DNA from: Candidatus Schekmanbacteria bacterium
GTDB lineage: Bacteria; Schekmanbacteria; GWA2-38-11; J061
Direction of reading: 5' to 3'
DNA length: 64,000 nucleotides
Assembly: GCA_016219965.1 (NCBI GenBank)
Contig: JACRJM010000015.1
Location: 31,857-95,856, forward strand
Shown: piece after piece, positions 9,282 to 44,075 of the stretch
Layout of the letters: each line of letters opens with the position of its first letter
How positions within the stretch are numbered: position 1 is the stretch's first letter
Notes under the pieces: model-generated
Databases searched by the model: none
What the model was told of the DNA's origin: nothing
What the model saw: the letters and a program-made list of their open reading frames with translations, nothing else
Position numbers and translations under genes: made by a program

Positions 9282-9296
9282 TGGCACAAATGTTGC
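9282..9296 (+). promoter_or_regulatory. Sigma-54 (RpoN) -24/-12 promoter, TGGCAC-N5-TTGC
   Basis: TGGCACAAATGTTGC gives exact GG-N10-GC spacing and 9/9 of the core consensus, 43 nt upstream of the ATG at 9339. Two sigma-54 activators (PrsR and an NtrC-like protein) are encoded in the window. Confidence 0.55.
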
Positions 9297-9338
9297 TTTA
9301 TTTTTATATACTGTGTGATTTAATATTAAAAAAAGTAT

Positions 9339-11324
9339 ATGAAATCAAATTATAAAACCTCTATCGAGTTTTGGAAAGATTTCTTAGAAAATTTATCTGA
9401 GATACATGGAATATTTTTGCAGTTAATTGGTAAGAATGGGGTTTCTTATTCTAAGTCATTTAATCAGCGGACAATATGTTCCTATCTGAAAAGATTCAAT
9501 AAAACTGTAGATGAATGTTCCAAATCCTGCCATGATCTTATACTAAAATGCATAGAAGAACGTGAAGTAAAGAGAATATCTTGCTACATGGGAGTAGAAT
9601 ACTTTGCAGTTCCAGTATTACTAGACAACGGTGAAATTGCCGCTGTTGCTGGAGGTAAAGTATTAACAACAATTCCCTATAGAGAGTCTTATGCTGAACT
9701 CTGTGAGAGATATGGCTTAGATTTAGATGAGGTATTAAATTCGATAAATGAGCTTAAGTTTATGAAAGATTCTGCAATAGATTCATATATTAAGATGATT
9801 GAAAAGTTCGGTAATAGTTCTGCTTCTGCTTTTTCAGATTTGAGAGAGCTTAAACGTAGTGAATATATTTTTAAGAAAAGTTTTGATGCTATGGAGGAAA
9901 TTTGTTCTTCTATTGGCTCATTAGAAAAATTTTATTTTGCCATCCTGAACTTTATTACAACTAATTTTAATATAAAAGATGCATCGCTATTAGTGATTAA
10001 TGAAAATCGATATGAAACAGTAGCGGACATAAGAGATTTTAAAAGCAAAGGCATATTTTCCCAGGTTAGTATATCTTCTACCTCTCATCTTATTGATCAA
10101 TTAAAGAACAGAGAAACTGGATATCTGGTAGTAACTGATCCCAGTAAGCTTGAGGAATTTGGTATTAAGTGGGGTACTCAATCACTTTCTATTTTCCCGG
10201 TTATAACTGGAAGCGGTATGTGGGGAATGATTCTTGTTTTTGATTTTATTTCGAATAATGAGCAAATGGATGATATTTCAAAGTTCTGTGTTAATTTGAA
10301 ACAAGGAATTGAAAACTTTTTAATTAAGGAAAAAATAGAAAGTATAGGACAGCAAAAAGTTGTATTTAAAAAAATTGTTGAAGATTTAAAAAAATATAAT
10401 GATGTTAATGAACTGTTAATAACAGTTGCTAACAAAATTGGCTGGTATTTTAATGCTCAAAGAGTTTCAATTGCGATTGTTGATGAAGAAGCTGGCAGGC
10501 TTGAGTTAAAGGCTGTGCGTGGAATAGATAAAAATATCATCAATAATGTTAAATACCTTGCTGAAAACAGCATCAGTAATCATGTTTTTAAATCTGGCAC
10601 TCCCATTTTTGTTAGAGATATAATGAATGATGAGAAATTTTCTAAAATGGCTCATCTTGGCTGTAATGGACGTGCTTTTGCAAGTGTTCCGTTAAGAAAT
10701 AATGGGACATCGCTTGGTGTTGTAAATTTGAGTGATATCACAGATCAGTCGAATTTGGATGAAGAGTATTTTGAGGCACTAGAGGATTTAATAAAGGTGG
10801 CGGCACTGATAATAGAGAAAGCTATTTGCAAGAAAGAATTAGGAAGTATAAACCTTAAATATGTCGATGAAACCACCGGTATTTATAACAAAAAATATTT
10901 TACTGAGTATGCAAAAAATACCATAGAAAATTCAAAAAGATATAACCGTAATACTTCTATTGTGCTATTAGATTTTGGCGAAGGGAATGGTATAAATGAA
11001 ATTAATGTAGAGGATAAGATGAGAACCACTGTAAATGATGCCAGAAAACTTATAAGACGCTCAGATATAATGGCTGCTTATGATAAAAACAAATTTGCTT
11101 TTTTATTGCCAGATACTGAAAAGGATGGAGCTCTTATTTTTGCAAGAAAGATTCAGGCGAAAGTTCATGATTTGATATTGCTTTCAGATAAAATTGGCGA
11201 AATAAAAGTTAAGGTTGGTGTAAGTACATTCCCAGATGATGGTGATACGTTGGGTGAATTGACATTTATTGCAAAGAATGCCCTTGGTGGTTCAGATAAT
11301 CCTTCATCTAGTTTCATAGAATAA
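9339..11324 (+). CDS. Multidomain regulator: Cys-containing N-terminal sensory region, two GAF domains, degenerate GGDEF (diguanylate-cyclase-like) domain
   Basis: GAF-like blocks at ~aa 190-500. C-terminal GGDEF fold carries DFGEG in place of GGDEF/GGEEF, so it is probably catalytically inactive. First gene after the sigma-54 promoter. Confidence 0.5.
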   Translation: MKSNYKTSIEFWKDFLENLSEIHGIFLQLIGKNGVSYSKSFNQRTICSYLKRFNKTVDECSKSCHDLILKCIEEREVKRISCYMGVEYFAVPVLLDNGEIAAVAGGKVLTTIPYRESYAELCERYGLDLDEVLNSINELKFMKDSAIDSYIKMIEKFGNSSASAFSDLRELKRSEYIFKKSFDAMEEICSSIGSLEKFYFAILNFITTNFNIKDASLLVINENRYETVADIRDFKSKGIFSQVSISSTSHLIDQLKNRETGYLVVTDPSKLEEFGIKWGTQSLSIFPVITGSGMWGMILVFDFISNNEQMDDISKFCVNLKQGIENFLIKEKIESIGQQKVVFKKIVEDLKKYNDVNELLITVANKIGWYFNAQRVSIAIVDEEAGRLELKAVRGIDKNIINNVKYLAENSISNHVFKSGTPIFVRDIMNDEKFSKMAHLGCNGRAFASVPLRNNGTSLGVVNLSDITDQSNLDEEYFEALEDLIKVAALIIEKAICKKELGSINLKYVDETTGIYNKKYFTEYAKNTIENSKRYNRNTSIVLLDFGEGNGINEINVEDKMRTTVNDARKLIRRSDIMAAYDKNKFAFLLPDTEKDGALIFARKIQAKVHDLILLSDKIGEIKVKVGVSTFPDDGDTLGELTFIAKNALGGSDNPSSSFIE

Positions 11325-11518: not shown

Positions 11519-12337
11519 ATGAATTATTATAAAAAAGTTATGTTTATTTTATTATTTTTTTGTTTGTCTATAGTAGGTGTTTTGCGTGCATCAGACGAAT
11601 ATATAATTGGAGAAGAAGATATTATTGAAATATCAGTTTGGAAGAATCCCGAATTAAGTAAAGTTGTTGTTGTGAGACCTGATGGAATGATTTCATTGCC
11701 ACTTATAGATGATATCCAGGCTAAAGGCATGACAGCGCTTCAATTGAGAGATAAGCTAATTGAAAAACTAACAAAATTTATTGAAGTCCCTGATATTACA
11801 GTCACTCTTAGAGAAATCAACTCATATAAAGTCTATGTTATATATAACGGTCAAGGTCAATCTGGGGAATTTACTCTTAAACGAAATGTAAATCTTCTTC
11901 AGTTTTTCGCGAAAATCGGTGGTATTAAAGATATTGATTTGAAACAGTCTTATATTCTTCGTGATAATAAAAAAATTGATGTGGATATGAACAAACTTAT
12001 TGATGATAATGATTTGGCACAAAACATAGAATTAAAGCCAAATGATACATTTTTTTTTCAGGATAAATTTTCTTCTCGAATCACTGTAATAGGGCAGGTA
12101 CAGAAACCTGGTATTGTTAGCTACAGGAAAGGACTTACTTTGGTTGATGTTATATTGGAAAGTGGAGGAGTTACTGATTTTGCACGCTCTTCTGGTACAA
12201 AAGTAATTAGGAAGGCTGATGGGGAAGAAAAAATAATTAAAGTCGATATGGCTGATATATTGGAAGATGGAGAAATAGATAAAAATATTCCTGTAGAGCC
12301 TGGTGATACTGTGATTGTGCCAAAAGGATTCCTGTGA
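11519..12337 (+). CDS. Polysaccharide export protein, Wza/EpsA-like (Poly_export + SLBB), periplasmic/outer membrane
   Basis: Signal peptide, then ISVWKNPELS...VRPDGMISLPLIDDIQAKGMTALQL, typical of the polysaccharide biosynthesis/export family. Strong RBS GGAGG precedes the ATG. Confidence 0.75.
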   Translation: MNYYKKVMFILLFFCLSIVGVLRASDEYIIGEEDIIEISVWKNPELSKVVVVRPDGMISLPLIDDIQAKGMTALQLRDKLIEKLTKFIEVPDITVTLREINSYKVYVIYNGQGQSGEFTLKRNVNLLQFFAKIGGIKDIDLKQSYILRDNKKIDVDMNKLIDDNDLAQNIELKPNDTFFFQDKFSSRITVIGQVQKPGIVSYRKGLTLVDVILESGGVTDFARSSGTKVIRKADGEEKIIKVDMADILEDGEIDKNIPVEPGDTVIVPKGFL

Positions 12338-13614
12338 CCTGTATAAGAAAAACAATTTTACTTTTTTTGTTGGCTATTATTTTATCACTCTGTTTAATGG
12401 TGAATGCTAACTATTGTTGTGCCGGAGGTTTTGATTTACGTGGTTCTATTGGAGTTGATGAAGAATATAATGACAATGTTTTTCTGCTTCGTTCAAAAAA
12501 AATAGATGATTTCATGACTAGAGTGAGACCTATTGTTGATCTAACATACAGAATTAATGAAAAAAATTATTTAGAAACTAGCTATTCAGGTGAGGCAATA
12601 TTTCATAGGAAAAGCACACCCTATGTTAATGACGAAATGAGGCATACCCTAGATTCTCGATTACAAATAGCTCCACTGAATAATGTAGTGTTATTTTTGA
12701 AAGATGATTACAGCGAAATCCCAATAGATACGCGTGAACCAGATCGCTTTAAAGGTAGAAATCGTAACCTTACTGGAAAAAATGATTTCAATATTTCTTT
12801 GTCATATCTAAGGGATTATACTGCAACAATTAACACAGAATTTAAAGCCTATTATGATGATATAAGGATTAATTCTAATTCAATCAATAATAAAGAAACA
12901 GTGGGTTGTTCACTTCAATTGAATAAAATAATTTCAAATAATACTTCTATTTTTGGAAAAGTTATTGCTGAATCAGTAAACCAGAGTATAGCATCTGATT
13001 ATGATTTAATGTCATACCAGGGTGGTTTCACATATGAGCAACTTAAAAAACTTAAATTGTTTTTTACAGGTGGAGTAGTGAATAAAGATTATAAAACTGC
13101 AAAAAACCTCGATGAGTTTTTTTTAGAAGCAAATGGCGAATATGCAATACTTCAAAATTTATATTTAACTGGAAGTTTCAAAAAAGGTTTTGAAGATAAT
13201 GAAGAAAGAAGAAATGCGAAAAAAAATGCATATGAACTTAAGAATTATACTGTGGGGTTTGAATATAGGCTTATAGGAAATGGAGTGATAAAAGTTTCAG
13301 GTTTTTCGAATAAGAAAGATTTCAAACAAGCTAATAGAATGGATAAGTCAAAAGGGTTAGGATTAGATGGGACTATTTTTTTTACAAAATTAATGTCATT
13401 CATGTTTAATGTAAATTACAGTAAAAGTAAATTTCTGTCAGAAGAACAGAATAGAAATGATAAAACTTTGCTGTTAGGATGTGGAATATTTATTCATCCT
13501 TTTAGTTGGCTGCAGACAGGAGTTCGCTATCTTAGGACAGATAGGAATTCGAATATTAATATAAGAGATTATATTGTGAACCGCTATACTTATAATATAA
13601 CTTTATTGTTTTAA
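12334..13614 (+). CDS. Putative outer-membrane beta-barrel protein of the EPS export apparatus
   Basis: Signal peptide, alternating amphipathic strands, and C-terminal ...YNITLLF with a terminal Phe typical of OMP barrels. Its start overlaps the Wza-like gene by 4 nt. Confidence 0.4.
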   Translation: MTCIRKTILLFLLAIILSLCLMVNANYCCAGGFDLRGSIGVDEEYNDNVFLLRSKKIDDFMTRVRPIVDLTYRINEKNYLETSYSGEAIFHRKSTPYVNDEMRHTLDSRLQIAPLNNVVLFLKDDYSEIPIDTREPDRFKGRNRNLTGKNDFNISLSYLRDYTATINTEFKAYYDDIRINSNSINNKETVGCSLQLNKIISNNTSIFGKVIAESVNQSIASDYDLMSYQGGFTYEQLKKLKLFFTGGVVNKDYKTAKNLDEFFLEANGEYAILQNLYLTGSFKKGFEDNEERRNAKKNAYELKNYTVGFEYRLIGNGVIKVSGFSNKKDFKQANRMDKSKGLGLDGTIFFTKLMSFMFNVNYSKSKFLSEEQNRNDKTLLLGCGIFIHPFSWLQTGVRYLRTDRNSNINIRDYIVNRYTYNITLLF

Positions 13615-13623
13615 TAATGTGTT

Positions 13624-15138
13624 ATGGCTGAGACCTCTAAAATACATTTAAGAGATTATGTGGAAATTCTTTATAAGAGAAGGTTCTATTTTTTATCTAT
13701 ATTCTTTTTGATGACTACGATAGTTACGATCATAAGCTATTTTCTACCAAAGGTTTATGTTTCGACTGCATTAATACTTATAGAAAAACAACAAGTTATC
13801 AAGAATATGGTTGGTGGTGAAGGTGTTTTGAGAGAGGATATGAAAAGTAAAATAATGACTTATAATGAAAGAATAATAAGTACAAATAATTTATTGAGTG
13901 TAATTAAAAAACTAGATCTGGATGTTAATTTAAAAACTCCAAGAGCAATGGAAAACATGATTAACAAGATCAGATCCAATATAGATGTAACAGTTAAAGG
14001 AATTAATTTATTTGAGATAACATATGAAGATGAAGATCCAAAACTTGCTATGTTGATTACCAGGACTCTTACTGATAATTTTATCGAATCAACATTGAAT
14101 GAATCTAGAACTCAAAGTCACTCAGTATTTGATTTTATTAAAGGCATGGCAGAACAATATAAGAAAAACTTGGAAGATTCAGAAAACACTCTTGAAAATT
14201 TTAAGAAACAGCACATAGGTGAACTTCCGGGAGAAGTAAATTCTAATCTGACAAAACTTTCACAATTCGACTCAATGTATACCGAAACAAAACTAGCGCT
14301 TGATGTAGCATTTCTGAAAAAGAAGAAAATTGAAGAACAGATTGAAAAAGAAAAACCCTTTATCAATCCTCAAGGAGATACACGAGAAAGATTAAAATCT
14401 CTCGAAGCAAAACTCGCTCAACTAATGTCTATGTATACAGAAAATTATCCTGAGGTTAAGATGCTTAAAAAAATAATAGAAAACACTAAGAAACAGATAA
14501 GTGGAGAGATTCCTGATGGAACACCGGACAATCCTGAAATGGCTTTACCAAACCCCGTATATCAAAAATTAAAAGAATCATTAAGTGATGTAGAAATTGA
14601 AATAACTTCTTTGAATGGTAAACTTCAAAGCTATCAAAATAAGCTTAATGAATATTCTGATAAAGCTAAGTCAGTACCGGAACAGGAACAGGAACTTACA
14701 AAAATAACAAGAGACTATAAAGTAAATGAAGAGATTTATCAAATGCTTTTGAGAAGACTTGAAGAAGCAAGAATAACAAAAGAACTTCAGGCTGATGAAG
14801 AAGGTGAAAAATACAGAATAGTAGATCCTCCTTTAACGCCTATTAATCCTATCAAACCCAATAGAGCAAGAATAATGCTTATTGGATTATTATTAGGAGT
14901 TGGAGCTGGTATAGGTATAGTTGTATTGCTTGAATATTTTGACCATTCAATAAGAGAACTTAATGATGCCAAATCTTTTTTCCAAATTCCAATTTTAGGA
15001 ACAATTCCCGAAATATTACTTGATGATGATGTTAAGAGGATAAAAAAATATAATATAAGAGCAGCCCTACTGGGATTTGTCTATCTGCTAATGTTATTTG
15101 CTCTTATTATAAGAGAGTTTTTAAAATATAATTCATAA
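13624..15138 (+). CDS. Polysaccharide chain-length determinant protein (Wzz/GumC/EpsF family, PCP-2a transmembrane part)
   Basis: N-terminal TM, long coiled-coil periplasmic region, and C-terminal TM with the G-rich helix LIGLLLGVGAGIGIV. Confidence 0.7.
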   Translation: MAETSKIHLRDYVEILYKRRFYFLSIFFLMTTIVTIISYFLPKVYVSTALILIEKQQVIKNMVGGEGVLREDMKSKIMTYNERIISTNNLLSVIKKLDLDVNLKTPRAMENMINKIRSNIDVTVKGINLFEITYEDEDPKLAMLITRTLTDNFIESTLNESRTQSHSVFDFIKGMAEQYKKNLEDSENTLENFKKQHIGELPGEVNSNLTKLSQFDSMYTETKLALDVAFLKKKKIEEQIEKEKPFINPQGDTRERLKSLEAKLAQLMSMYTENYPEVKMLKKIIENTKKQISGEIPDGTPDNPEMALPNPVYQKLKESLSDVEIEITSLNGKLQSYQNKLNEYSDKAKSVPEQEQELTKITRDYKVNEEIYQMLLRRLEEARITKELQADEEGEKYRIVDPPLTPINPIKPNRARIMLIGLLLGVGAGIGIVVLLEYFDHSIRELNDAKSFFQIPILGTIPEILLDDDVKRIKKYNIRAALLGFVYLLMLFALIIREFLKYNS

Positions 15139-15160
15139 GTTATTTTAAGGATATAGATAC

Positions 15161-15985
15161 ATGAGCATAAAAAATGTTTTTCTAAATCTATTTCGAATGT
15201 CTTCATTTAAAAGAAAAAAGCCTGAGATTAATAATGATGTTGGGAATGTTGAATTAGAAGGAGATGCAGTAAATAGTTCAAAACAACTTAACTCAATTTT
15301 AGTATGCAACATGGATCAACGTTCTCCTATAGCAGAACAATACCGAAATTTAAGAAATCAAGTGTTATCAGAATCTAAAATAAATAATTACAAAATATTA
15401 AGCATAACGAGCTCAGTTAGAGATGAAGGTAAAACAACTACATGTGCAAATTTAGCCATCATGTTAGCAGCGAAACCAGAATTAAATATTCTAATTATAG
15501 ATGGTGATATGAGAATGCCGTCATTGCACAAATTATTTGGGATCCAAAATGATAATGGACTTAGCGATTTGCTTCAGTATAAAGCGGAATTCGAGTCGTG
15601 TGTTAGAAATACTTTTATAGATAATTTAAAAATGTTACCCGCTGGTGAACTTCCAAGTAGTCCCTCTGAGCTTATTTCCTCAATGAAAATGCGTGAGTTG
15701 TTAAGCTATCTTAAAACGAGAAAAGATATAGACTATGTTCTGATAGATACACCTCCACTAATACCAACTACAGATCCACGCGTTCTTGCTGTTTTGGTTG
15801 ATGCGTCTATTTTGGTAGTTAAAGCAAATAAAACATTTAGGGAAGCTATTTCGCATAGTCTTTCACTTTTTGGAGGAGGGAAAGTGCTTGGTGTTGTGCT
15901 AAATAATCTTAGCGGGTTATCATCATATTATCCTTATTATTATTCATATGCATATGGATATGATGATTATGAAAAAGGAGAGTAG
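15161..15985 (+). CDS. Protein-tyrosine kinase (BY-kinase, ParA/MinD-like ATPase; EpsG-type) with C-terminal tyrosine cluster
   Basis: Walker A SVRDEGKTTTCANLA and a C-terminal YYPYYYSYAYGYDDY autophosphorylation cluster. Encoded immediately after the chain-length determinant. Confidence 0.7.
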   Translation: MSIKNVFLNLFRMSSFKRKKPEINNDVGNVELEGDAVNSSKQLNSILVCNMDQRSPIAEQYRNLRNQVLSESKINNYKILSITSSVRDEGKTTTCANLAIMLAAKPELNILIIDGDMRMPSLHKLFGIQNDNGLSDLLQYKAEFESCVRNTFIDNLKMLPAGELPSSPSELISSMKMRELLSYLKTRKDIDYVLIDTPPLIPTTDPRVLAVLVDASILVVKANKTFREAISHSLSLFGGGKVLGVVLNNLSGLSSYYPYYYSYAYGYDDYEKGE

Positions 15986-17889: not shown

Positions 17890-17899
17890 ATAATACAAG

Positions 17900-18817: not shown

Positions 18818-18832
18818 TTAGATAATTAATTT

Positions 18833-20311: not shown

Positions 20312-20323
20312 GAAGATTTACCT

Positions 20324-31526: not shown

Positions 31527-31527
31527 A

Positions 31528-31559
31528 GTTAGCGAGCGAATTCAATATAATGACAAAAT
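31528..31559 (+). repeat. Copy A of a 32-nt repeated element, GTTAGCGAGCGAAT-N8-ATGACAAAAT
   Basis: 28/32 identical to the element at 44256-44287. Copy A starts 2 nt after the beta-helix gene stop and opens a 25-codon ORF beginning MTK. Confidence 0.5.
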
Positions 31560-31627
31560 TCTTACATTATGAAGAATCCCTATCTCATGTTGTGGTAGTA
31601 TCAATTTATTTAAGTGATGAATAATTT

Positions 31628-33987: not shown

Positions 33988-34019
33988 TTTTATTAAAATT
34001 ATAATTATGCAAATATTAT

Positions 34020-36077: not shown

Positions 36078-38201
36078 ATGGTAGGACTTATTTTAGCACC
36101 ATCAGCGCTGTGTTTCATTCTTCTGATTCCTCTTAGCTTCTATGTTTTAAGCAAGAATCCCAAGGAACTTCCTAACATCTCTTTTGCAATTGCCACCGGG
36201 ACTTTGGCATTAGTTGAGTTAGGGAAGTTTATGTTTCTCCTTAATCCAGTGTCTTGGACAGCAGATATATGGCTTAAATGTTTTTGGGGTGGATTAGTAT
36301 CAATGCCGGTATCGTGGCTTTTCTTCAGCCTCATATTTGCAAGAGAAGGCTATAATCCAATAATTACGAAATGGCGTTGGGGCCTGACAGGGGTTTCACT
36401 CGCATCAGCGGCAGCAATTCTCGTTGTTACTAAAGATGATAAAGCTATTTATCCTGCTGTTGTCGGCAAAACTCCGGGAGTAGTTCTTGGGGCTGACAGC
36501 TATTTTATGTGTATATATCTTATGCTCGCATTTGTCCTCGTAATAGTTAATTTTGAAAACACATTAAGAAACGCATCGGGCCCAATTAAAAGACAGATAA
36601 AATATGCAATAGTTGGAATAATTGGAGTCTTCTCATTCTTTATATATATTTTGACTGAAGCACTTTTATATTCTTTTATCGCAGTTAAACTTTTATTTGC
36701 CGGTTCATGCATCACTATAATTTTAACACTGGTCCTATATTTTTCTATTATAAGATACCGTATGCTCGATGTTCACGTCTTCATTTCCAGATATGTTATT
36801 TACAGGTCAGTTTCAATCCTTGCAGTTGGCATCTATTTATTATTAACTGGAACATTGTTACAGCTTACTGAGGTTCTTGGAGGTAGTTTTTACCAATATT
36901 TTAAACCGGTAATGGTTTTTGTCGCAGTAGCTTTGTTCGCAATATTGTTACTATCAGACAGAGTGAGGCGAAAACTTCAAATATTTATTAGTAAGAATTT
37001 TTTTGCCAATAAATATGATTACCGTTACGTCTGGTCTCAATTTACAGAAAAACTTGGCTACACGGTAAAGATTAATGAAATGTTGCCGGAAATTGCCGAG
37101 ATGATTGCCGGAATTATGTGGGTTGAATCAGTTTCAATCTGGTTGTATGATGAGGAAGTTAAGGGATACAAGGTGGCAGAATATTTTAATCTCATGGAGA
37201 TGAAAGATGTAATAATAAAAAGTGACGATTTTATTGTTAAAGCACTTGAAGAACAGGAAATATTAGATCTTACAAAGCTTACGGAAAGTTCGGATGTTCA
37301 AGATTTAGACAAGGCTATATTTATGTCTAACACCTTAAATGCACGTGTAGTGGTCTCAATGAAAAATCAAGAGGGGTTAATGGGTTTTATTGCAGTTGGT
37401 AGCGAAATAACTGGAGAACATTTTAATTATGAAGATTATGAACTGCTTCAGACATTAGCAAGGCAATCGGCAAACCTAATTCAAAATGCTATGCTTTCTG
37501 AAAGATTAATGATTTCACAGCAAATGGAATCTGTTACCAGAGTTGCATCATTTATAATTCATGATCTCAAGAATCTTATATCAACACTGGATATGCTTTT
37601 AGATAATAGCAGGGAATATATTGATAATCCTGAATTTCAGAAAGACTTGATAATCACACTCGAAAATACTGTAAAAAAGATGCGCAGGATGATGGAGAGA
37701 GTTTCTACAAAACCGCAGGAGACAAATTTTATCTTTGAACCTGTCAACTTAATTAATATAATTAGAAATAGCATCGAGGAGGTCCGTCTGGAGAATAATC
37801 CTAAAGTTAAATTGATGAAATCCTTTGACGAAAATGACTCAGTTGTAACTATGGGAGATGAAAAATCATTGAATAAAGTTTTTACAAATATCTTGATAAA
37901 TGCAATGCAGGCTTTGCCTTCAATTGGAGGAGTTATAGATATTAGCGTAAACAAAAATAACGATAGAATTAATGTTTCTATTTCAGATAATGGGAAAGGA
38001 ATAACACAAGACTTCATAAAAAAAAGTCTTTTTAAACCATTTCAGACTACTAAAGAGGGAGGTTTAGGTATAGGATTGTACCAATGCAAAACTATTATTG
38101 GAGCACATGAAAAGGCAACATTAGATGTCGAAAGCGAAAAGGGGAAGGGAGCAAAATTTATAATAAGCTTTCCTATCAGTGAAAGAGGTGCAGTAAATTG
38201 A
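36078..38201 (+). CDS. prsK: PEP-CTERM system sensor histidine kinase PrsK (polytopic N-terminus, GAF, HisKA, HATPase)
   Basis: About 700 aa with ~8 N-terminal TM helices, a GAF-like middle, a His box (FIIHDLKNL) and a HATPase_c G-box (DNGKGI...GGLGIGL). Adjacent to exosortase and PrsR. Confidence 0.75.
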   Translation: MVGLILAPSALCFILLIPLSFYVLSKNPKELPNISFAIATGTLALVELGKFMFLLNPVSWTADIWLKCFWGGLVSMPVSWLFFSLIFAREGYNPIITKWRWGLTGVSLASAAAILVVTKDDKAIYPAVVGKTPGVVLGADSYFMCIYLMLAFVLVIVNFENTLRNASGPIKRQIKYAIVGIIGVFSFFIYILTEALLYSFIAVKLLFAGSCITIILTLVLYFSIIRYRMLDVHVFISRYVIYRSVSILAVGIYLLLTGTLLQLTEVLGGSFYQYFKPVMVFVAVALFAILLLSDRVRRKLQIFISKNFFANKYDYRYVWSQFTEKLGYTVKINEMLPEIAEMIAGIMWVESVSIWLYDEEVKGYKVAEYFNLMEMKDVIIKSDDFIVKALEEQEILDLTKLTESSDVQDLDKAIFMSNTLNARVVVSMKNQEGLMGFIAVGSEITGEHFNYEDYELLQTLARQSANLIQNAMLSERLMISQQMESVTRVASFIIHDLKNLISTLDMLLDNSREYIDNPEFQKDLIITLENTVKKMRRMMERVSTKPQETNFIFEPVNLINIIRNSIEEVRLENNPKVKLMKSFDENDSVVTMGDEKSLNKVFTNILINAMQALPSIGGVIDISVNKNNDRINVSISDNGKGITQDFIKKSLFKPFQTTKEGGLGIGLYQCKTIIGAHEKATLDVESEKGKGAKFIISFPISERGAVN

Positions 38202-39559
38202 CAAAAAAACAAAAACTCTTAATTGTTGAAGATGACCGTGAAGCATTAAGGCAGTTAGATTGGGCATTTTCTAGGTTTTATAAAGTTATAAAGACTGATA
38301 CTGAGGAACAGGCCATTGAATTATTTATTGAACAACAGCCGCGTGTAGTATTGCTCGATCTTTCTCTTAGCGATGACCAGGAAGAACAGGAAGGGTTTAG
38401 AATATTGGAAAAAGTGTTAAGCCTTGATCCTCTTACTAAGGTTATTGTTGTTACAGGACATGATGAGGACAAAGCAGCTATCAAAGCAATAAGACTTGGT
38501 GCATGGGATTATTATATTAAACCTGTAAAGCCGTCAGAATTAAGAGCTATGGTAGATAGGGCTTACCATATAAGTGACATTGAGGAGAAAAGCTTAACCA
38601 ATGCAAGAAAAGAGTTTGACGAGAACAAATATGGTGAGATTGTAGGAGGATGTCCTGAAATTAAAGAAGTAATGCAGTTTATTGATAATGTCGCTGGAAC
38701 TGAGACAACAGTATTAATCCTTGGTGAAAGTGGCACCGGGAAAGAACTAGTGGCTCGTGCTATCCATAATTCCAGCAAGAGAAAAGAAAAGCCTTTCATT
38801 GTAATAAACTGTGGTGCAATCCCTGAAAACCTGCTGGAAAGTGAGCTTTTTGGACACGAGAAAGGTTCTTTTACAGGAGCTTACGCACAAAAAAAAGGAA
38901 AATTGGAGTTGGCGGAAGAAGGAACTATATTCCTTGATGAAATAGGTGAAATTCCACCAATACTTCAAGTAAAATTGCTCAGGTTCCTTCAGGAGAAAGA
39001 GTTTGAACGTGTTGGCGGCACAAAGCAGATTAAAGTTAATGCGAGGATAATAGTTGCAACTAACAGAGATTTGAAGACTGATATGAATGAAGGTAAATTC
39101 AGAGAAGACCTTTATTATCGTTTGAATGTTGTTTCAGTAACATTGCCGCCTTTAAGAGAGAGGGGAAATGATGTAATACTGATTGCAAGATTTTTGGTAG
39201 ACAAATATTGTGCTGAAAACAATATTCCTCCAAAATCTCTGAGTAGAGAAGCAGAGCTGGCAATTAGAAAATATCAGTGGCCAGGGAATATAAGGGAATT
39301 GGAAAATCTCACAAAAAGAGCAATAATCATGTCTCCAGGGAGTTTGCTTTTCCCCTCTGACCTGGGATTAAAAGAAACGGCAGAGTCAAAATGCCTCTTA
39401 ACACTAAAAGAAGCAAAAGAAGAAATAGAGAGGAAATGTCTGCTTGATGCTCTTGAAAAAAATAATGGATTTGTAAGCAGAGCTGCTAAAGATTTAGGTG
39501 TAAGTAGAGGAACATTTTACGATTTATTGAAAAAACATGGGATTGAAATTGAAGAATAA
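38198..39559 (+). CDS. prsR: PEP-CTERM-box sigma-54-dependent response regulator PrsR
   Basis: REC domain, AAA+ sigma-54 activator domain (GESGTGKE, GSFTGA, Walker B FLDEIG) and a C-terminal HTH. Its start overlaps prsK by 4 nt. Confidence 0.8.
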   Translation: MTKKQKLLIVEDDREALRQLDWAFSRFYKVIKTDTEEQAIELFIEQQPRVVLLDLSLSDDQEEQEGFRILEKVLSLDPLTKVIVVTGHDEDKAAIKAIRLGAWDYYIKPVKPSELRAMVDRAYHISDIEEKSLTNARKEFDENKYGEIVGGCPEIKEVMQFIDNVAGTETTVLILGESGTGKELVARAIHNSSKRKEKPFIVINCGAIPENLLESELFGHEKGSFTGAYAQKKGKLELAEEGTIFLDEIGEIPPILQVKLLRFLQEKEFERVGGTKQIKVNARIIVATNRDLKTDMNEGKFREDLYYRLNVVSVTLPPLRERGNDVILIARFLVDKYCAENNIPPKSLSREAELAIRKYQWPGNIRELENLTKRAIIMSPGSLLFPSDLGLKETAESKCLLTLKEAKEEIERKCLLDALEKNNGFVSRAAKDLGVSRGTFYDLLKKHGIEIEE

Positions 39560-39679: not shown

Positions 39680-41191
39680 ATGGGAAAAAACAATAAAAAA
39701 ATTTTACTTATTACTCCCCCTTATTACAGATTATATAACAGTAGATATTCGCTCAATCGTTATCCCCTGTCATTAGGTTATTTGTCAGGAGCAATATTGG
39801 ATAATACTTCATGGGAAGTTATGACTTACAATGCTGATTTCTGTCAAGATAATGAGCAGCTGCAAGTTAGTTATTTAGCAGGAGAAGGATTTAATAATTA
39901 TCTAAAAAACATCAATGATCTGACAAGCAGCATATGGGATGAAGTTAAAGAAACGATAAGGGATTTTAATCCTTCTGTAATAGGATTATCCTGTATGACT
40001 CAGAATTTTAAGGGAGCATACAACATTGCCAAAATTGCTAAAGAACTAAATGAGGATATTCTTGTTATAGTTGGCGGTCCACATGCAAACATGTTTTTAT
40101 CGGAAGTCTTAGACTATCCTTACATTGATATATGTGCTGTCGGAGAGGGAGAGGAAACTATTGTCGAATTGTTAAATACTATTGACGGTAACAATGATTT
40201 TAATACTGTTACGGGAATTATATATAGAATAGATGGGAAGGTTGTCGTGAATCAACCGAGAGAACTTCTTAAAGATTTAGATTCTCTTTCTTTCCCTCAT
40301 AAATATGCTCATAAGGTTTTAAAAAATTATGATAGATATCCAGTCGAAGCTTTCCACAACATTTTTGCTATAAGAGGGTGTCCTTTTAACTGTATTTTTT
40401 GTGGTTCTATTTATATTTGGGGCAGAAAACCAAGATATCGTTCTATAGACAATGTAATTGAAGAGATAAGAAACCTGAGCAGAATGGGGGTTAAAAGAAT
40501 AAGCTTTGAAGATGATTCGTTCGGGATTAAAAAGTCTTATATCTTGGAGTTAGCTGAAAAAATTAATGTAAATTGCCCCAGTGTAAAATGGTCCTGCGAA
40601 ATGCACGTAAAAACCGTTACTGAAGAGATTGTGTCTGCTATGAGCGATTCTGGTTGTTGCAAAATTACATTGGGTGTTGAATCCGGGAACAACGATATTT
40701 TAAAGAAGATACGTAAAAAAAATACAATAGAAGATTGCATCCATGCGGGCAAAATTATATCGAAGTTCAATATTGAATTAGGTGCATTCTTTATGGTTGG
40801 GTTTCCATGGGAGACAGAAGAAACCCTGAAAGATACAATTAGGGCAATGAAGAAACTTAATGCTGATTATTCAGTGTATAGTATTTTTACACCATATAAA
40901 GGGTCTGAAGCTTTCAGTATCTGCAAAGATATGGGGTTGATAAGCGATGATTATGATTTTTCCATATATAATCACCAGAGTCCATTAAACTGTTTCTGTA
41001 AAAATATTTCCAAAGAAAGATTTAGAAAAATATGTTCTAAAATGGAAAGGATAAGCGATAAAAGAGGTATCTATTATCAATTAATCAAACCGTTAACATC
41101 TTTAAAAACCATCAGAAAAATTAAAAATAAAGGGCTGAAAGGAGTCATTAAAAAAGTCAGAAACTTAGCTTTAGCATCAACTAAAAAGTAA
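39680..41191 (+). CDS. B12-binding (class B) radical SAM protein, paralog of 6029-7402
   Basis: B12-binding-like N-domain (VGGPHAN, VGEGEE) and the rSAM triad GCPFNCIFC. IW-RK-RYRS, FEDD and ETEET blocks align with the paralog. Confidence 0.8.
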   Translation: MGKNNKKILLITPPYYRLYNSRYSLNRYPLSLGYLSGAILDNTSWEVMTYNADFCQDNEQLQVSYLAGEGFNNYLKNINDLTSSIWDEVKETIRDFNPSVIGLSCMTQNFKGAYNIAKIAKELNEDILVIVGGPHANMFLSEVLDYPYIDICAVGEGEETIVELLNTIDGNNDFNTVTGIIYRIDGKVVVNQPRELLKDLDSLSFPHKYAHKVLKNYDRYPVEAFHNIFAIRGCPFNCIFCGSIYIWGRKPRYRSIDNVIEEIRNLSRMGVKRISFEDDSFGIKKSYILELAEKINVNCPSVKWSCEMHVKTVTEEIVSAMSDSGCCKITLGVESGNNDILKKIRKKNTIEDCIHAGKIISKFNIELGAFFMVGFPWETEETLKDTIRAMKKLNADYSVYSIFTPYKGSEAFSICKDMGLISDDYDFSIYNHQSPLNCFCKNISKERFRKICSKMERISDKRGIYYQLIKPLTSLKTIRKIKNKGLKGVIKKVRNLALASTKK

Positions 41192-41255
41192 ACCCCTCTC
41201 GAAAACAAAATTGTTTTTTATCTCGTATTTTCTTCTATTTTAGAAATAAAGCCTT

Positions 41256-44075
41256 TTACATTCCGTTGAGCAGTTTTCTTACTTCATCTAATTCAGGAAA
41301 ATTTGTTGACAGACTAAGGGCTTTTTGAAATTCAGATTTCGCCCTGCTTTTATCTCCTTCACGCATATAAGCTAAGCCCATATGATAATGAATTGTTGGG
41401 TCATCGGGAACAAGTTTTAAGGCTTCCTGGAACTTTTCTTTGGATTCTTTAATCATTCCTTTTTTAAAGTATACCCAGCCTAATGTATCAATGACCCCTC
41501 CGTTATTTGGAGCCAGTTTTACGGCTTTTTGAGCCATACTTACTGCTTCATTCATATTCTTTCCAGTTTCTGCATATACCCATGCAAGGTTATTTTGAGC
41601 AAGGGGAATATCCGGAGATATTTTTATTGCTTCGTTGTAGTTTAAAATGGACTTGTCAAAATTTTTCTGGGTTTGATAAATTGATCCAAGCTTAGTATAT
41701 ATATCAGCTCGTATTAATTGCAGTTCCTTATCACTGTTTTTAGGAATTAACTCTAACGCTTTATTGTAATGATTAATAGCTTCATCTCTGTTGCTGCGTT
41801 TCATAGATAGTTCTGCAAGATTGATTGCAGGGAGTGGTGATTTCGGAAATTGAGCTGAAGCTTTTTCTAGGATTCCCATGGCATTAGCATAATCCCCTTT
41901 TTCCGAGTAAATTTTGCTTTGAAGTGTATAAGGTAACAAAGAATTTATTTTAGGACCTTGAACTGCTTTTGCAATCTGAAGGGCTTCGTCGAAACGTTTG
42001 AGCGATGTCAATAATGATATTTTCTGAACTTTTATTTCTACTGAATCCGGGGATTTTGTAAGGGCTTTATCTATCTGCTCAAGCGCCTGATTAAAGTCCT
42101 TCTTAACAGCATAAAGAGAAGCCAGTCTAAGATAACCAAGGGGTTTATCTGGCTGTAAGGATATTATCTTTTGATATGTTTGTTCTGCTTCATCCATTTT
42201 TTTATTTTTTACATAGAATGATGCTAAATAGTCATAACCAGCAATAGCCTTCTCATCACTTTTTATCATTCTTTCAGCAGTTTCTTTAAGCTTATCATCC
42301 TGATTTGACTTTGCATATATACTTGCCAGATCAGCAAGCAATACATTATTGGCGGCAGTCTGCTTGATTCCGTTTTCAAGTATATCTATTGCCTGCTTGG
42401 TGTTCTCCTTCTGGAGGCTCAGTGCTGCAAGTCTCTTTATTAAACCTATATTAGCAGGTGATTTAGCAAGTGCTTTACTAAGAATGTTTTCAGCTTTTCC
42501 TATGTCCTGTTGTTTTATATAGATTGTAGACAAGTTAATGTAAGATGAAATAACATCAGGCGATTTCCCAATAGCTGTCTGATAAATATCTATTGCTTTA
42601 GCAGGCTCGTTTTTTCCAAAATAGGCAGAACCCAATAGATTCAACAAAGTAGGATTATCTTTAGAGCGTTTTAATCCTTCTTGGCACTCTGATATTGCCT
42701 TATCATACTGTTGTGATTGTAAATAATAAGCAATAATTGTAATTCTTGCATCTAGAAAATTCGGATTTACCTCAAGTGCTTTTTCAAATTCACTAATAGC
42801 ATTATCATTTTTCCCGGTTGATGCATAAAACTTTCCAAGGTTCAAATAAGATGGAGCAAATTCCGGATTGATTTCTATGGCTTTAGATAATTCCTTCTCA
42901 GCTTTGTCAAATTGTTTTGTCTGGGCATATGCCTGGGCAAGAGTAGCGTAAGCCAGAGGATTATCAGGTGCAGACTGTGCTATTTTCTGGAATTCCTGGA
43001 GGGCTTCATCATTCCATCCCTGTTTCAGATAAAGCGTACCTAAATAAAGATTGGCCAAAGTAAAAGACGGTTTTATTCTCAATACTGTCTTTAATTCAGT
43101 TATTGCCTGCTGCATGTTGCCCTTTTCCGCTTGCGCCAAAGCGAAATAAAATCTTGCTTCAGCGAATCCGGGTCCTTTTTTTACAGATTGTTCTAATTCT
43201 GAAAACGCAGCATCAATTTTGCCCTGTCTAAGACGGGCAACTCCCTTAAGGTAATTTCCTCCTGCAAGCTTAAAGTCTATTTTGTTGAGGGTTTCCCCCT
43301 CCTCGATCGCTGCATCAAATTTTTTCTGGTCTAAATAAAGTGAACCTAGAAGAAAACGTGTGTCATAGTGATTAGGATTAATCTGTAAGGCCTTTTTAAA
43401 AGTTTGTTCGGCGTTTGTATAATCTTTTTTCTGAATATAGAAGTTTGCTAAGCTTAATATTCCCTCAAAGTCCTTTGGGGCTAATTCCAGAGATTTTTTG
43501 TAGAAGGCTTCTGCTTCATCAAATTTCTTTTCGCGCATATATAGATGCCCCCTGCTTATGTAAACCTTAGAAAAGGCAGGGTCCATTTGAATGACCTGCT
43601 TGAAATATGAATCTGCTTTATCGAAATCATTTTTTGCTGTCCAGGCCATTCCTATAGCATTTAAACACTGTTTGTTATTAGGATCTTTTTTTATTAAACT
43701 TTCCAGACTTTTCAGTGCATCGTCCGCTTTCCCTCTGCTCAAATTTATAAGTCCCATTTGCAACAGAAGATCATTGTTTTCAAACTTAAGTCCATTTGCT
43801 TTTTCAAACTGTTCGAGTGCTTTATCGTACTCCCGTCTCCCCATGTACGATTTTCCGAGATAATACAATGTCTCTCCAGACTGGGGGTCAATTTTTAATG
43901 CATTCTTAAGTTCAATTATGGCTCCGTTATATTCTTCTTTTTCAATTAAGCTCTTGGCTTTGATTATATGTTTTTCAATTTTTTCTTTTGGACTTTGGCA
44001 GGAAGTTAGTATAAATAGTGTTAGCAGTATATTCACAGAAAGAAATGAGAAACGGAATATGGCTGATTTTTTCAT
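41256..44075 (-). CDS. prsT: PEP-CTERM system TPR-repeat lipoprotein PrsT
   Basis: 939 aa with a lipoprotein signal (LTSC lipobox) and more than 20 TPR repeats. Size and neighbourhood match PrsT. Confidence 0.75.
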   Translation of the reverse strand: MKKSAIFRFSFLSVNILLTLFILTSCQSPKEKIEKHIIKAKSLIEKEEYNGAIIELKNALKIDPQSGETLYYLGKSYMGRREYDKALEQFEKANGLKFENNDLLLQMGLINLSRGKADDALKSLESLIKKDPNNKQCLNAIGMAWTAKNDFDKADSYFKQVIQMDPAFSKVYISRGHLYMREKKFDEAEAFYKKSLELAPKDFEGILSLANFYIQKKDYTNAEQTFKKALQINPNHYDTRFLLGSLYLDQKKFDAAIEEGETLNKIDFKLAGGNYLKGVARLRQGKIDAAFSELEQSVKKGPGFAEARFYFALAQAEKGNMQQAITELKTVLRIKPSFTLANLYLGTLYLKQGWNDEALQEFQKIAQSAPDNPLAYATLAQAYAQTKQFDKAEKELSKAIEINPEFAPSYLNLGKFYASTGKNDNAISEFEKALEVNPNFLDARITIIAYYLQSQQYDKAISECQEGLKRSKDNPTLLNLLGSAYFGKNEPAKAIDIYQTAIGKSPDVISSYINLSTIYIKQQDIGKAENILSKALAKSPANIGLIKRLAALSLQKENTKQAIDILENGIKQTAANNVLLADLASIYAKSNQDDKLKETAERMIKSDEKAIAGYDYLASFYVKNKKMDEAEQTYQKIISLQPDKPLGYLRLASLYAVKKDFNQALEQIDKALTKSPDSVEIKVQKISLLTSLKRFDEALQIAKAVQGPKINSLLPYTLQSKIYSEKGDYANAMGILEKASAQFPKSPLPAINLAELSMKRSNRDEAINHYNKALELIPKNSDKELQLIRADIYTKLGSIYQTQKNFDKSILNYNEAIKISPDIPLAQNNLAWVYAETGKNMNEAVSMAQKAVKLAPNNGGVIDTLGWVYFKKGMIKESKEKFQEALKLVPDDPTIHYHMGLAYMREGDKSRAKSEFQKALSLSTNFPELDEVRKLLNGM

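What the first reader, a model, noticed from the sequence alone, without database searches (positions are those of the whole stretch)
9282..44075. Complete XrtA/PEP-CTERM exopolysaccharide locus with a non-canonical gene complement and no PEP-CTERM substrate gene
All hallmark genes of the exosortase-A system are present in one ~35-kb block:
- exosortase with the NPCSG Cys motif, separate EpsI, PrsK, PrsR and divergent PrsT;
- Wza, Wzz and BY-kinase;
- EpsB priming transferase, the system-associated deacetylase, Wzx, Wzy-like protein, GT4/GT2 transferases and a hexapeptide acetyltransferase.

The locus also carries genes not part of the described core:
- two membrane-anchored sulfatase-like proteins;
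- two B12-radical-SAM enzymes;
- a GT39-like membrane glycosyltransferase;
- a beta-helix secreted protein;
- a GAF/degenerate-GGDEF regulator;
- a tail-anchored receiver protein.

No ORF of 60 aa or more in the window ends with a PEP-CTERM sorting signal, so the exosortase substrates must be encoded elsewhere.
Basis: partly seen in the sequence, partly recalled or inferred. Interest (0 to 1): 0.55.

Follow-up and report, generated by a model that had tools for sequence, protein, structure and literature searches.

The report
Exosortase polysaccharide locus in Schekmanbacteria
This is an ordinary, already auto-annotated exosortase (PEP-CTERM) exopolysaccharide gene cluster from an uncultured Candidatus Schekmanbacteria bacterium. 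Its substrate protein is encoded on another contig of the same genome, and its one "PEP-CTERM box" promoter drives a signalling gene at the head of the cluster.

Summary
**Observation: confirmed.** All named genes are present at 9.3-44.1 kb.
- PrsK, PrsR, PrsT, EpsI, Wza-like exporter, Wzz-like protein, EpsB_2 and the deacetylase pass NCBIfam cut-offs.
- The exosortase has the Cys/Arg/His residues but scores 188.7 against an XrtA cut-off of 208. Its whole Schekmanbacteria clade scores 167-189.
- The accessory genes exist, but one sulfatase-like gene and one B12-radical-SAM gene lie upstream of the stated range. The island runs past the window start.
- No PEP-CTERM tail occurs in the window or the rest of the 76.7-kb contig.

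**That absence is normal.** Only 16 of 83 related loci have such a gene within 10 kb. A PEP-CTERM protein (MBI5374656.1) is encoded on another contig of the same sample.

**New points.**
- The window holds one complete PEP-CTERM box: the proposed PrsR site (motif 1) at 9182-9198 and a sigma-54 promoter at 9282-9296. It sits in front of the PocR-GAF-degenerate-GGDEF gene, not a substrate gene.
- The slot between prsR and prsT holds a PEP-CTERM gene in a relative. Here it holds a B12-radical-SAM gene.
- The "sulfatases" lack the formylglycine motif.

**Status.** The locus is already in GenBank (MBI5376460-84). I rate it a new member of a known kind, of low to moderate interest.

The parts
1..8847 (-). 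Divergent accessory operon that continues beyond the window start. It encodes a FAD oxidoreductase (7399-8847), a B12-radical-SAM enzyme (6029-7402), a PMT_2-like GT-C protein (3925-5991), a second GT-C-like membrane protein (2208-3815) and sulfatase-like protein 2 (272-2116). The end of a further PMT_2-like gene occupies 1-239.
   Evidence: NCBIfam and Pfam; gene calls on the full contig; same order in a 95%-identical strain. Sulfatase-like 2 has Ala at the formylglycine position and SPYGE in place of SDHGD.
9182..9198 (+). PEP-CTERM box motif 1 (proposed PrsR binding site), TGTCGGAATTTTAGACA
   Evidence: It is the only match in the window. The same 17-nt motif lies upstream of sigma-54 promoters of PEP-CTERM genes in L084, L024, L043, L059 and L064. 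Its geometry fits Haft 2006. It is invariant in strain variants L088 and L089, while the spacer carries substitutions.
9282..9296 (+). Sigma-54 promoter, TGGCAC-N5-TTGC, 83 nt after motif 1 and 42 nt before the ATG at 9339
   Evidence: Single exact match, 0.01 expected by chance. It is the only intergenic sigma-54-like site.
9339..11324 (+). PocR-GAF-degenerate GGDEF signalling protein (661 aa), first gene after the PEP-CTERM box
   Evidence: Pfam PocR, GAF and GGDEF; no GG[DE]EF motif; only two homologues at E<=1e-20 in 5.8 billion proteins; GenBank MBI5376460.1.
11519..15985 (+). Export and chain-length module: Wza-like TIGR03027 (11519-12337), beta-barrel outer-membrane protein TIGR03016-like (12334-13614), Wzz-like TIGR03007 (13624-15138), BY-kinase (15161-15985)
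   Evidence: Pfam BBP2_2.
16019..16486 (+). Single-domain response-regulator receiver with a C-terminal transmembrane helix
   Evidence: Pfam Response_reg residues 4-110; transmembrane segment 136-154; GenBank MBI5376465.1 'response regulator'.
16501..25790 (+). Repeat-unit initiation, flipping and polymerisation: EpsB_2 priming transferase (16501-17889), deacetylase TIGR03006 (17900-18817), Wzx (18833-20311), PMT_2/GT39 protein (20324-22018), GT4 (22027-23355), Wzy/O-antigen-ligase-like protein (23352-24587), GHL15 (24597-25790)
26012..34607 (+). Glycosyltransferases and modification enzymes: GT4 (26012-27139), six-TM sulfatase-like protein 1 (27151-29055), GT4 (29180-30295), secreted beta-helix protein (30303-31526), GT4 (31628-32854), GT2 (32851-33987), hexapeptide acetyltransferase (34020-34607)
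   Evidence: Sulfatase-like 1 has T-L-P-S-Y where sulfatases have C-x-P-x-R. GT2 and the acetyltransferase are conserved next to the exosortase in relatives.
34610..36075 (+). Exosortase (34610-35449) and separate EpsI (35422-36075), overlapping by 28 nt
   Evidence: The same overlap occurs in L084 and L085, so it is not a frameshift.
36078..39559 (+). PrsK histidine kinase (36078-38201) and PrsR sigma-54 enhancer-binding response regulator (38198-39559)
   Evidence: GenBank names them PrsK and 'PEP-CTERM-box response regulator transcription factor'.
39680..41191 (+). B12-binding radical SAM enzyme. It occupies the prsR-prsT slot that holds a PEP-CTERM gene in a relative.
   Evidence: CPFNCIFC cluster motif. 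The slot holds a PEP-CTERM gene in L084 and L094, and a decayed remnant in L085 and L086.
41256..44075 (-). PrsT TPR lipoprotein
   Evidence: TIGR02917 562 vs 312; lipobox LTSC.
44278..46889 (+). Second histidine kinase and sigma-54 response regulator pair, conserved next to prsT in the closest relatives
   Evidence: 52-68% identical orthologues in the same position in L084, L085 and L086.

Best explanation
This is the XrtA-type exosortase/PEP-CTERM exopolysaccharide (EPS) island of an uncultured Candidatus Schekmanbacteria bacterium.

**Shown by homology**
- It is a Wzx/Wzy-dependent polysaccharide pathway. It comprises an EpsB_2 priming transferase, GT4/GT2 transferases, an acetyltransferase, a deacetylase, a Wzx flippase, a Wzy-like polymerase, a Wzz-like co-polymerase with a separate BY-kinase, a Wza-like exporter and a beta-barrel protein.
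- Next to it lie an exosortase with an intact Cys/Arg/His set, EpsI, the PrsK-PrsR two-component system and the PrsT lipoprotein.

**Inferred from the family model (Haft 2006; floc genetics in Aquincola)**
- PrsK signals to PrsR.
- PrsR binds the TGTCGG-N8-ACA site and activates sigma-54 promoters.
- The exosortase cleaves the PEP-CTERM tail of secreted proteins at the inner membrane and passes them to the EPS layer.

**Specific to this organism**
- At least one substrate gene (MBI5374656.1, tail SPVPEPSTLW...KRLKSR) lies on another contig. It has its own sigma-54 promoter and motif-1-like sites.
- The only PEP-CTERM box in the window precedes the PocR-GAF-degenerate-GGDEF gene at the head of the export and biosynthesis string. 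No terminator is detected before wza.
- PrsR therefore probably switches on this signalling protein, and possibly the EPS genes, together with the substrate.

**Accessory genes**
- These are GT-C/PMT_2 proteins, formylglycine-less sulfatase-fold membrane proteins, two B12-radical-SAM enzymes, a FAD oxidoreductase, GHL15 and a beta-helix protein.
- They form a strain-variable, low-GC glycan-tailoring set.
- Their chemistry is not determined.
For: - **Family assignments:** HMM scores above curated cut-offs for PrsK, PrsR, PrsT, EpsI, TIGR03027, TIGR03007, TIGR03013 and TIGR03006. The exosortase catalytic residues are invariant.
- **Conserved module:** GT2, acetyltransferase, exosortase, EpsI, PrsK, PrsR, variable slot, PrsT, second kinase and second regulator appear in that order in L084, L085 and L086.
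- **Cognate signal is classical PEP-CTERM:**
  - L084 and L094 carry a PEP-CTERM gene next to prsT.
  - Its homologue P0137 is in the window's own sample SRR12113407. It equals GenBank MBI5374656.1, from Candidatus Schekmanbacteria.
  - The window's genes are MBI5376460-MBI5376497.
- **PEP-CTERM box:**
  - Motif 1 lies at 9182-9198 and the sigma-54 site at 9282-9296.
  - The geometry is as published in PMC1569441 section 7.
  - The same box precedes PEP-CTERM genes in at least 5 of 8 related cases.
- **Read-through:** no terminator-like site in 8700-12000.
- **Experimental precedent:** RpoN-dependent pepA lies next to prsT in Aquincola (PMC9850573).
Against: - The exosortase scores 188.7 on the XrtA model against a cut-off of 208. 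Its best raw score is a partial match to XrtW, but genuine XrtA proteins match XrtW equally well.
- Several system-specific EPS models fall below their cut-offs.
- Canonical TIGR03015 ATPase, FemAB-like and asparagine-synthase genes were not found.
- PrsR binding, sigma-54 dependence, read-through into wza and exosortase activity are all inferred, not measured.
- P0137 is assigned to the same genome from the shared sample, the GenBank organism name and nearby accession numbers. There is no single contig joining the two.
Confidence: 0.85

Rival explanations
1. The exosortase belongs to a distinct, unnamed subfamily (neither XrtA nor XrtW) that recognises a different sorting signal. The PrsKRT genes are merely neighbours.
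For: - It falls below the XrtA cut-off, as does the whole clade at 167-189.
- PGAP names it only 'exosortase/archaeosortase family protein'.
Against: - Relatives with 63% identical exosortases carry a classical P-E-P tail gene in the same module.
- The same organism has a PEP-CTERM protein with the PrsR-type box.
- Genuine XrtA proteins clear the cut-off by only 7-17 bits, and Edaphobacter also misses it at 203.8.
- PrsK, PrsR, PrsT and EpsI adjacency is conserved.
Confidence: 0.08
2. The window holds two independent systems. One is the XrtA/EPS operon on the plus strand. The other is the divergent minus-strand operon (GT-C proteins, sulfatase-fold protein, B12-radical-SAM, FAD oxidoreductase), which makes or modifies a different glycoconjugate such as a lipid-linked glycan or a protein O-mannosylation-type modification.
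For: - The operon is divergently transcribed and has no PEP-CTERM box on its own strand.
- None of its genes has a counterpart within 10 kb of the exosortase in 83 related loci.
- It continues with GT2, GT87 and a further PMT_2 gene beyond the window.
Against: - It shares the low GC (about 30%) of the EPS part.
- Paralogues of its sulfatase-like (32% identity), B12-radical-SAM (31% identity) and PMT_2 genes sit inside the plus-strand operon.
- The two operons stay adjacent in the 95% strain variant.
Confidence: 0.25
3. The sorting arm is decaying. With the prsR-prsT substrate gene lost, the exosortase is vestigial and the locus now only makes EPS.
For: - The slot gene is replaced here and is a pseudogene remnant in L085 and L086.
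- No substrate gene is present on the 76.7-kb contig.
Against: - The catalytic Cys/Arg/His set is intact.
- PrsK, PrsR and PrsT are full length and above their cut-offs.
- An intact homologue of the slot gene, with a sigma-54 promoter, exists elsewhere in the same sample.
Confidence: 0.05

Closest known systems
XrtA (EpsH)/PEP-CTERM system with PrsK-PrsR-PrsT (Haft et al. 2006, BMC Biol 4:29)
   Same: - Exosortase with Cys/Arg/His and a separate EpsI.
- PrsK, PrsR and a PrsT lipoprotein.
- A Wzx/Wzy EPS locus with the TIGR03027, TIGR03007, TIGR03013 and TIGR03006 families.
- A 17-nt motif 1 plus sigma-54 promoter with the published spacing.
- PEP-CTERM substrates encoded apart from the locus.
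   Different: - The host is Candidatus Schekmanbacteria, whereas the 2006 paper found the box only in Proteobacteria.
- The exosortase scores about 19 bits under the XrtA cut-off.
- No TIGR03015 ATPase, FemAB-like or asparagine-synthase genes were seen.
- The box in the locus precedes a PocR-GAF-degenerate-GGDEF gene rather than a PEP-CTERM gene.
- A second sigma-54 two-component pair is conserved beside prsT.
Aquincola tertiaricarbonis and Zoogloea floc-formation loci (pepA next to prsT; PMC9850573)
   Same: - prsT sits beside a sigma-54-dependent PEP-CTERM gene in the close relatives L084 and L094.
- EPS and PEP-CTERM protein are regulated together.
   Different: - In this window the pepA-like slot holds a B12-radical-SAM gene.
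- The pepA-like gene lies on another contig.
Schekmanbacteria RIFCSP/GWA2 MAG loci (OGL40495.1 and relatives; L004, L085, L086)
   Same: - Same conserved module and order, from GT2 to the second sigma-54 regulator.
- B12-radical-SAM and GHL15 genes are also present in their variable part.
   Different: - Identity is only 47-68%.
- Their slot gene is a decayed remnant.
- No sulfatase-like, beta-helix or PMT_2 genes lie within 10 kb.
Type I (formylglycine) sulfatases, and phospho-group transferases of the alkaline-phosphatase superfamily (LtaS, EptA, BcsG)
   Same: - The sulfatase fold, with best PDB matches to S1 sulfatases and phosphonate monoester hydrolases.
- An N-terminal multi-TM anchor followed by an extracytoplasmic catalytic domain, as in LtaS, EptA and BcsG (my own knowledge).
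   Different: - Neither protein has C/S-x-P-x-R. Protein 1 has Thr and Tyr at the Cys and Arg positions.
- Protein 2 has Ala there and lacks the Asp-His metal ligands.
- No significant sequence match to LtaS or EptA appeared among the 60 PDB matches shown (69 in all).

Membership tests
Exosortase (EpsH) superfamily | Multi-pass membrane protein matching TIGR02602, with invariant Cys, Arg and His | tested here: met
   TIGR02602 196.4 vs 105.55. Cys183, Arg228 and His248 are conserved in an 18-sequence alignment. About 7-8 hydrophobic segments.
Exosortase A (XrtA, TIGR03109) | Score at or above the curated cut-off of the XrtA-specific model | tested here: not met
   188.7 vs 208. The clade scores 167-189, while Geobacter, Geomonas, Nitrospira and Desulfonema XrtA score 215-225.
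Exosortase A (XrtA) system | Genomic association with PrsK, PrsR, PrsT and EpsI | tested here: met
   All four are adjacent and above their cut-offs. The same order is found in relatives.
Exosortase A (XrtA) system | PEP-CTERM (TIGR02595-type) substrate proteins in the same genome | tested here: met
   None in the window or contig. P0137 (MBI5374656.1), with tail SPVPEPSTLWLIASSIVGYFLYSFKRLKSR, lies on another contig of the same sample and is named PEP-CTERM protein by NCBI. The TIGR02595 HMM itself was not run on it here.
Exosortase A (XrtA) system | PEP-CTERM box: 17-nt motif 1, a 32-92 nt spacer, then a sigma-54 -24/-12 promoter | tested here: met
   Window 9182-9198 and 9282-9296, about 82-83 nt apart. 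L095 has a sigma-54 site plus motif-1-like sites, though with a longer spacer.
Exosortase A (XrtA) system | Sigma-54 (rpoN) present in the genome | not testable with these tools
   rpoN is not in the window, and the whole MAG could not be scanned.
XrtA-associated EPS locus | System-specific EPS families above cut-off (TIGR03027, 03007, 03013, 03006, 03018, 03016, 03097, stp1-3, 03015) | tested here: inconclusive
   TIGR03027, 03007, 03013 and 03006 are met. TIGR03018, 03016, 03097 and 03088 hit below cut-off. TIGR03015 is absent from the 30 proteins scanned.
Exosortase W (NF038142) | Full-length (494-position) fused exosortase-EpsI match at or above 425 bits | tested here: not met
   225 bits over model positions 5-266 only. 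EpsI adds 62 bits. Genuine XrtA proteins give the same partial score.
Type I sulfatase (formylglycine-dependent) | C/S-x-P-x-R motif and Asp/His metal ligands | tested here: not met
   Protein 1 has TLPSY. Protein 2 has ALSSY, and SPYGE in place of SDHGD.
Diguanylate cyclase (GGDEF) | GG[DE]EF active-site motif | tested here: not met
   The domain matches Pfam at 53 bits, but no GG[DE]EF-like motif is present. A KNKF sequence sits at the expected place by eye.

The most novel reading that the evidence does not exclude
In this Schekmanbacteria lineage the PrsK/PrsR 'PEP-CTERM box' has been recruited to a non-substrate gene. That gene encodes a rare PocR-GAF-degenerate-GGDEF sensor, with only two homologues found among 5.8 billion proteins. 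Transcription may read through into the whole EPS export and biosynthesis operon.

PrsR would then directly couple matrix polysaccharide synthesis, and possibly c-di-GMP or small-molecule sensing, to substrate expression.

The formylglycine-less, membrane-anchored sulfatase-fold proteins and GT-C enzymes would add an undescribed periplasmic decoration to the polymer or to the PEP-CTERM protein.
Probability: 0.3. Interest if true: 0.45.

Novelty: new member of a known kind. Interest (0 to 1): 0.27.

Why it matters
- **Wider host range.** The result extends the PrsK/PrsR/PrsT-regulated exosortase system, including its cis-regulatory box, to the candidate phylum Schekmanbacteria. The box also appears in a Nitrospirota MAG. 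The 2006 description found it only in Proteobacteria.
- **Annotation gap.** The XrtA HMM cut-off misses this clade, so public annotation under-calls it.
- **A testable regulatory link.** PrsR may control a degenerate-GGDEF sensor and the EPS operon as well as the substrate genes.
- **No surprise overall.** The finding does not overturn anything. Variable tailoring genes and remote substrate genes are expected for these loci.

Tried and rejected
- **TIGR02595 scan not run.** I planned to scan concatenated ORF tails with the TIGR02595 HMM and prepared them. I did not submit them, because the regex with its positive controls was already decisive.
- **XrtW reading rejected.** The best raw NCBIfam score was to XrtW. 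Genuine XrtA proteins give the same partial score. A literature search for XrtW found nothing.
- **Frameshifted fusion rejected.** I considered that exosortase and EpsI were one frameshifted gene. The 28-nt overlap of two separate genes is conserved in relatives.
- **No RNA elements.** An Rfam scan for riboswitches such as c-di-GMP or cobalamin found none.
- **Other intergenic gaps.** I searched them for sigma-54 sites and found none. A second TGGCAT-N5-TTGC at 16456 lies inside a coding region with no motif 1 upstream and may be chance, with 0.2 expected per window.
- **Slot gene remnant.** I looked for a remnant of the slot PEP-CTERM gene in the window and found none.
- **Distant PocR-GGDEF homologue.** Its context (L090) shows no exosortase link.
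- **Walking the GenBank contig failed.** The contig index returned only the Logan assembly.


Full report
**Source and organism**
- The window is positions 6633-70632 of a 76,725-bp metagenomic contig, Logan assembly of SRR12113407.
- Its proteins are identical to entries of one GenBank MAG of Candidatus Schekmanbacteria, on a 613,962-bp contig:
  - PocR protein, MBI5376460.1
  - exosortase, MBI5376480.1
  - EpsI, MBI5376481.1
  - PrsK, MBI5376482.1
  - PrsR, MBI5376483.1
  - B12-radical-SAM, MBI5376484.1
  - Ffh, MBI5376497.1
- The locus is therefore already public and machine-annotated. PGAP names PrsK and the 'PEP-CTERM-box response regulator', but calls the exosortase only 'exosortase/archaeosortase family protein'.

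**Checking the observation: core genes**
- NCBIfam scans of 30 proteins put eight above their curated cut-offs:

| Protein | Model | Score vs cut-off |
|---|---|---|
| Wza-like exporter | TIGR03027 | 204.5 vs 180 |
| chain-length determinant | TIGR03007 | 378 vs 279 |
| priming transferase | TIGR03013 | 415 vs 393 |
| deacetylase | TIGR03006 | 362 vs 276 |
| EpsI | TIGR02914 | 73.5 vs 42.8 |
| PrsK | TIGR02916 | 418 vs 300 |
| PrsR | TIGR02915 | 545 vs 503 |
| PrsT | TIGR02917 | 562 vs 312 |

- PrsT begins with a lipobox, LTSC.
- The exosortase has the NPCSG cysteine. Cys183, Arg228 and His248 fall in invariant or near-invariant columns of an 18-sequence alignment.
- It passes the generic exosortase model (196 vs 106) but not the XrtA model (188.7 vs 208).
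- The BY-kinase, the TIGR03016-like outer-membrane protein, the Wzy/O-ligase-like protein and the stp2-like GT4s hit their PEP-CTERM-specific models only below cut-off.

**Checking the observation: accessory genes**
- Pfam confirms Wzx, a PMT_2/GT39-like protein, a beta-helix protein, the hexapeptide acetyltransferase, a PocR-GAF-GGDEF protein and a receiver with a C-terminal transmembrane helix.
- The GGDEF domain has no GG[DE]EF motif.
- The two sulfatase-like and two B12-radical-SAM genes are real. One of each lies at 272-2116 and 6029-7402 on the minus strand, outside the coordinates given.
- That divergent operon also holds a FAD oxidoreductase and two further GT-C-like proteins. It continues past the window start with another PMT_2 gene, a GT2 and a GT87.
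- The whole variable part (1-34 kb) has about 30% GC. The housekeeping flank has about 40%.

**Is the exosortase an XrtA?**
- All members of the Schekmanbacteria clade score 167-189 on the XrtA model.
- Reference-type XrtA proteins from Geobacter, Geomonas, Nitrospira and Desulfonema score 215-225. Edaphobacter scores 203.8.
- The partial XrtW match of about 200-230 bits is given by all of them and is uninformative.
- The closest relatives (63%, 53-56% identity) keep one module. Its order is GT2, acetyltransferase, exosortase, EpsI (overlapping), PrsK, PrsR, a variable slot, PrsT on the opposite strand, then a second histidine kinase and sigma-54 regulator.
- I therefore read it as a divergent XrtA by context. 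It fails the model-score criterion by a small margin.

**The missing substrate**
- Six-frame scans for a P-E-P-like motif followed by a hydrophobic helix and a basic tail found nothing in the window or the rest of the contig.
- The same scan found clear PEP-CTERM tails in 16 of 83 related loci, including a few probable false hits. Lacking one within 10 kb of the exosortase is therefore the usual state.
- Haft et al. 2006 describe PEP-CTERM genes as mostly single-gene operons with long upstream regions.
- In the 63% relative L084, the slot between prsR and prsT holds a 301-aa protein ending ...SPIPEPSTIFLTGTALLTVFFIRCKNLR. L094 has the same arrangement.
- In the RIFCSP Schekmanbacteria loci the slot holds a decayed remnant of that gene. 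In the window it holds the B12-radical-SAM gene.
- A search with the L084 protein found a 49% identical homologue whose 90% cluster contains P0137:
  - It equals GenBank MBI5374656.1, 'PEP-CTERM sorting domain-containing protein [Candidatus Schekmanbacteria bacterium]'.
  - It is encoded on contig SRR12113407_426714 of the window's own sample.
  - It ends ...SPVPEPSTLWLIASSIVGYFLYSFKRLKSR.
  - The contig has 40-44% GC, like the window's housekeeping part.
The cognate signal is the classical one.

**The PEP-CTERM box**
Chance expectation is 0.01. It lies 42 nt before the ATG of the PocR-GAF-GGDEF gene.
- 83 nt upstream, at 9182-9198, lies TGTCGGAATTTTAGACA. It is the only match to TGTCGG-N8-WCA in the window.
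- The same 17-mer type precedes sigma-54 promoters of PEP-CTERM genes in L084, L024, L043, L059 and L064. It matches the published description: a 17-nt motif 1 ending TTTACA, a spacer of 32-92 nt, then a sigma-54 motif 23-221 nt before the start codon.
- The remote substrate gene in L095 has TGGCACGTTTTTTGC and motif-1-like sites upstream, with a longer spacer.
- In 95%-identical strain variants, motif 1 is invariant and the promoter changes only from TGGCAC to TGGCAT. Substitutions are densest in the spacer and in the leader after the promoter.
- Of nine complete boxes in the sequences held, five precede PEP-CTERM genes. The window's box precedes a cytoplasmic signalling protein.
- No terminator-like site lies between that gene and wza, so read-through into the EPS operon is possible but unproven.
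- The PocR-GAF-GGDEF protein is rare. Only a 95% strain variant with the same context, and one 25% homologue in an unrelated context, were found.

**Accessory enzymes**
- The best PDB sequence matches of the 634-aa sulfatase-like protein are S1 sulfatases and phosphonate monoester hydrolases.
- At the formylglycine motif it reads T-L-P-S-Y where they have C-x-P/S-x-R.
- It has about six N-terminal transmembrane segments.
- Its 32% paralogue has Ala at that position and SPYGE for SDHGD, so it is probably not catalytic.
- Neither is a canonical sulfatase. What they do is open.
- The architecture (membrane anchor plus alkaline-phosphatase-fold domain, Thr nucleophile) recalls LtaS, EptA and BcsG-type phospho-group transferases. 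That is a lead from my own knowledge, not a tested membership.
- Both B12-radical-SAM proteins keep the CxxxCxxC motif.
- None of these accessory genes has a counterpart within 10 kb of the exosortase in 83 related loci. This fits a strain-variable tailoring set.

**Verdict**
- The locus is a divergent member of a well-described system, and it is already in GenBank with system-specific names for its regulators.
- Two features presented as unusual are typical: no substrate gene in the locus, and extra tailoring genes.
- The modest additions from this work are:
  - the identity of the organism;
  - the remote substrate gene;
  - the full PEP-CTERM box in front of a degenerate-GGDEF sensor at the head of the EPS genes;
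  - the history of the prsR-prsT slot;
  - the non-sulfatase nature of the sulfatase-like proteins;
  - the fact that the XrtA model cut-off misses this clade.

Noticed in passing
window 16456-16470 (+): A second sigma-54-like site, TGGCATAATACTTGC, lies inside the 3' end of the receiver gene, 30 nt before the epsB_2 start codon. No motif 1 lies upstream. About 0.2 such sites are expected per window, so it may be chance or an internal promoter.
   Followed up: partly
window 9200-9226: An A/T tract, TTTTTTTTTAAAAAAAATTTTTTTTT, lies between motif 1 and the sigma-54 promoter. It may be a bend or IHF-like region, as is often needed for enhancer looping.
   Followed up: no
window 272-2116 (-): Sulfatase-like protein 2 has Ala at the nucleophile position and lacks the Asp-His metal ligands (SPYGE for SDHGD). 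It looks like a non-catalytic paralogue of the protein at 27151-29055.
   Followed up: partly
window 44278-46889 (+): A second histidine kinase and sigma-54 response regulator pair sits next to prsT. The regulator scores 408 on the PrsR model, below the cut-off of 503. The pair is conserved in the same position in L084, L085 and L086, so it appears to be a lineage-specific addition to the regulatory module.
   Followed up: partly
L085 and L086, 15070-15470: The prsR-prsT gap of the RIFCSP Schekmanbacteria MAGs contains a frameshifted remnant of the PEP-CTERM gene that is intact in L084. No long ORF remains.
   Followed up: yes
window 48012-50849 (+): A 945-aa secreted protein with a right-handed beta-helix and ASH/HYDIN-type Ig-like domains is inserted between rplS and the trmD-rimM-rpsP-ffh string. 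It has no PEP-CTERM tail.
   Followed up: no
window 55946-59610 (-): A type II secretion secretin (GspD-like, 913 aa) and a GspC-like PDZ protein lie next to ffh. They are followed by TPR and unknown proteins.
   Followed up: no
window 1-34000 versus 44000-64000: GC is about 27-32% across the variable glycan genes, 34-37% across the conserved exosortase-PrsT module and 39-43% in the housekeeping flank. This pattern is typical of exchangeable polysaccharide islands.
   Followed up: partly
L091 and L095, start of the PEP-CTERM gene: The called start codon of the remote PEP-CTERM gene lies upstream of its own sigma-54 promoter, and the ATGGCAC of the promoter is read as Met-Ala. The true start is probably the later MLGERH..., only about 15 nt after the -12 element, which implies a very short leader.
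   Followed up: partly
L090 783-797: The only distant homologue of the PocR-GAF-GGDEF protein lies in an unrelated sugar-nucleotide context. A sigma-54-like TGGCCC-N5-TTGC lies upstream of a small 63-aa membrane-protein gene that precedes it.
   Followed up: no
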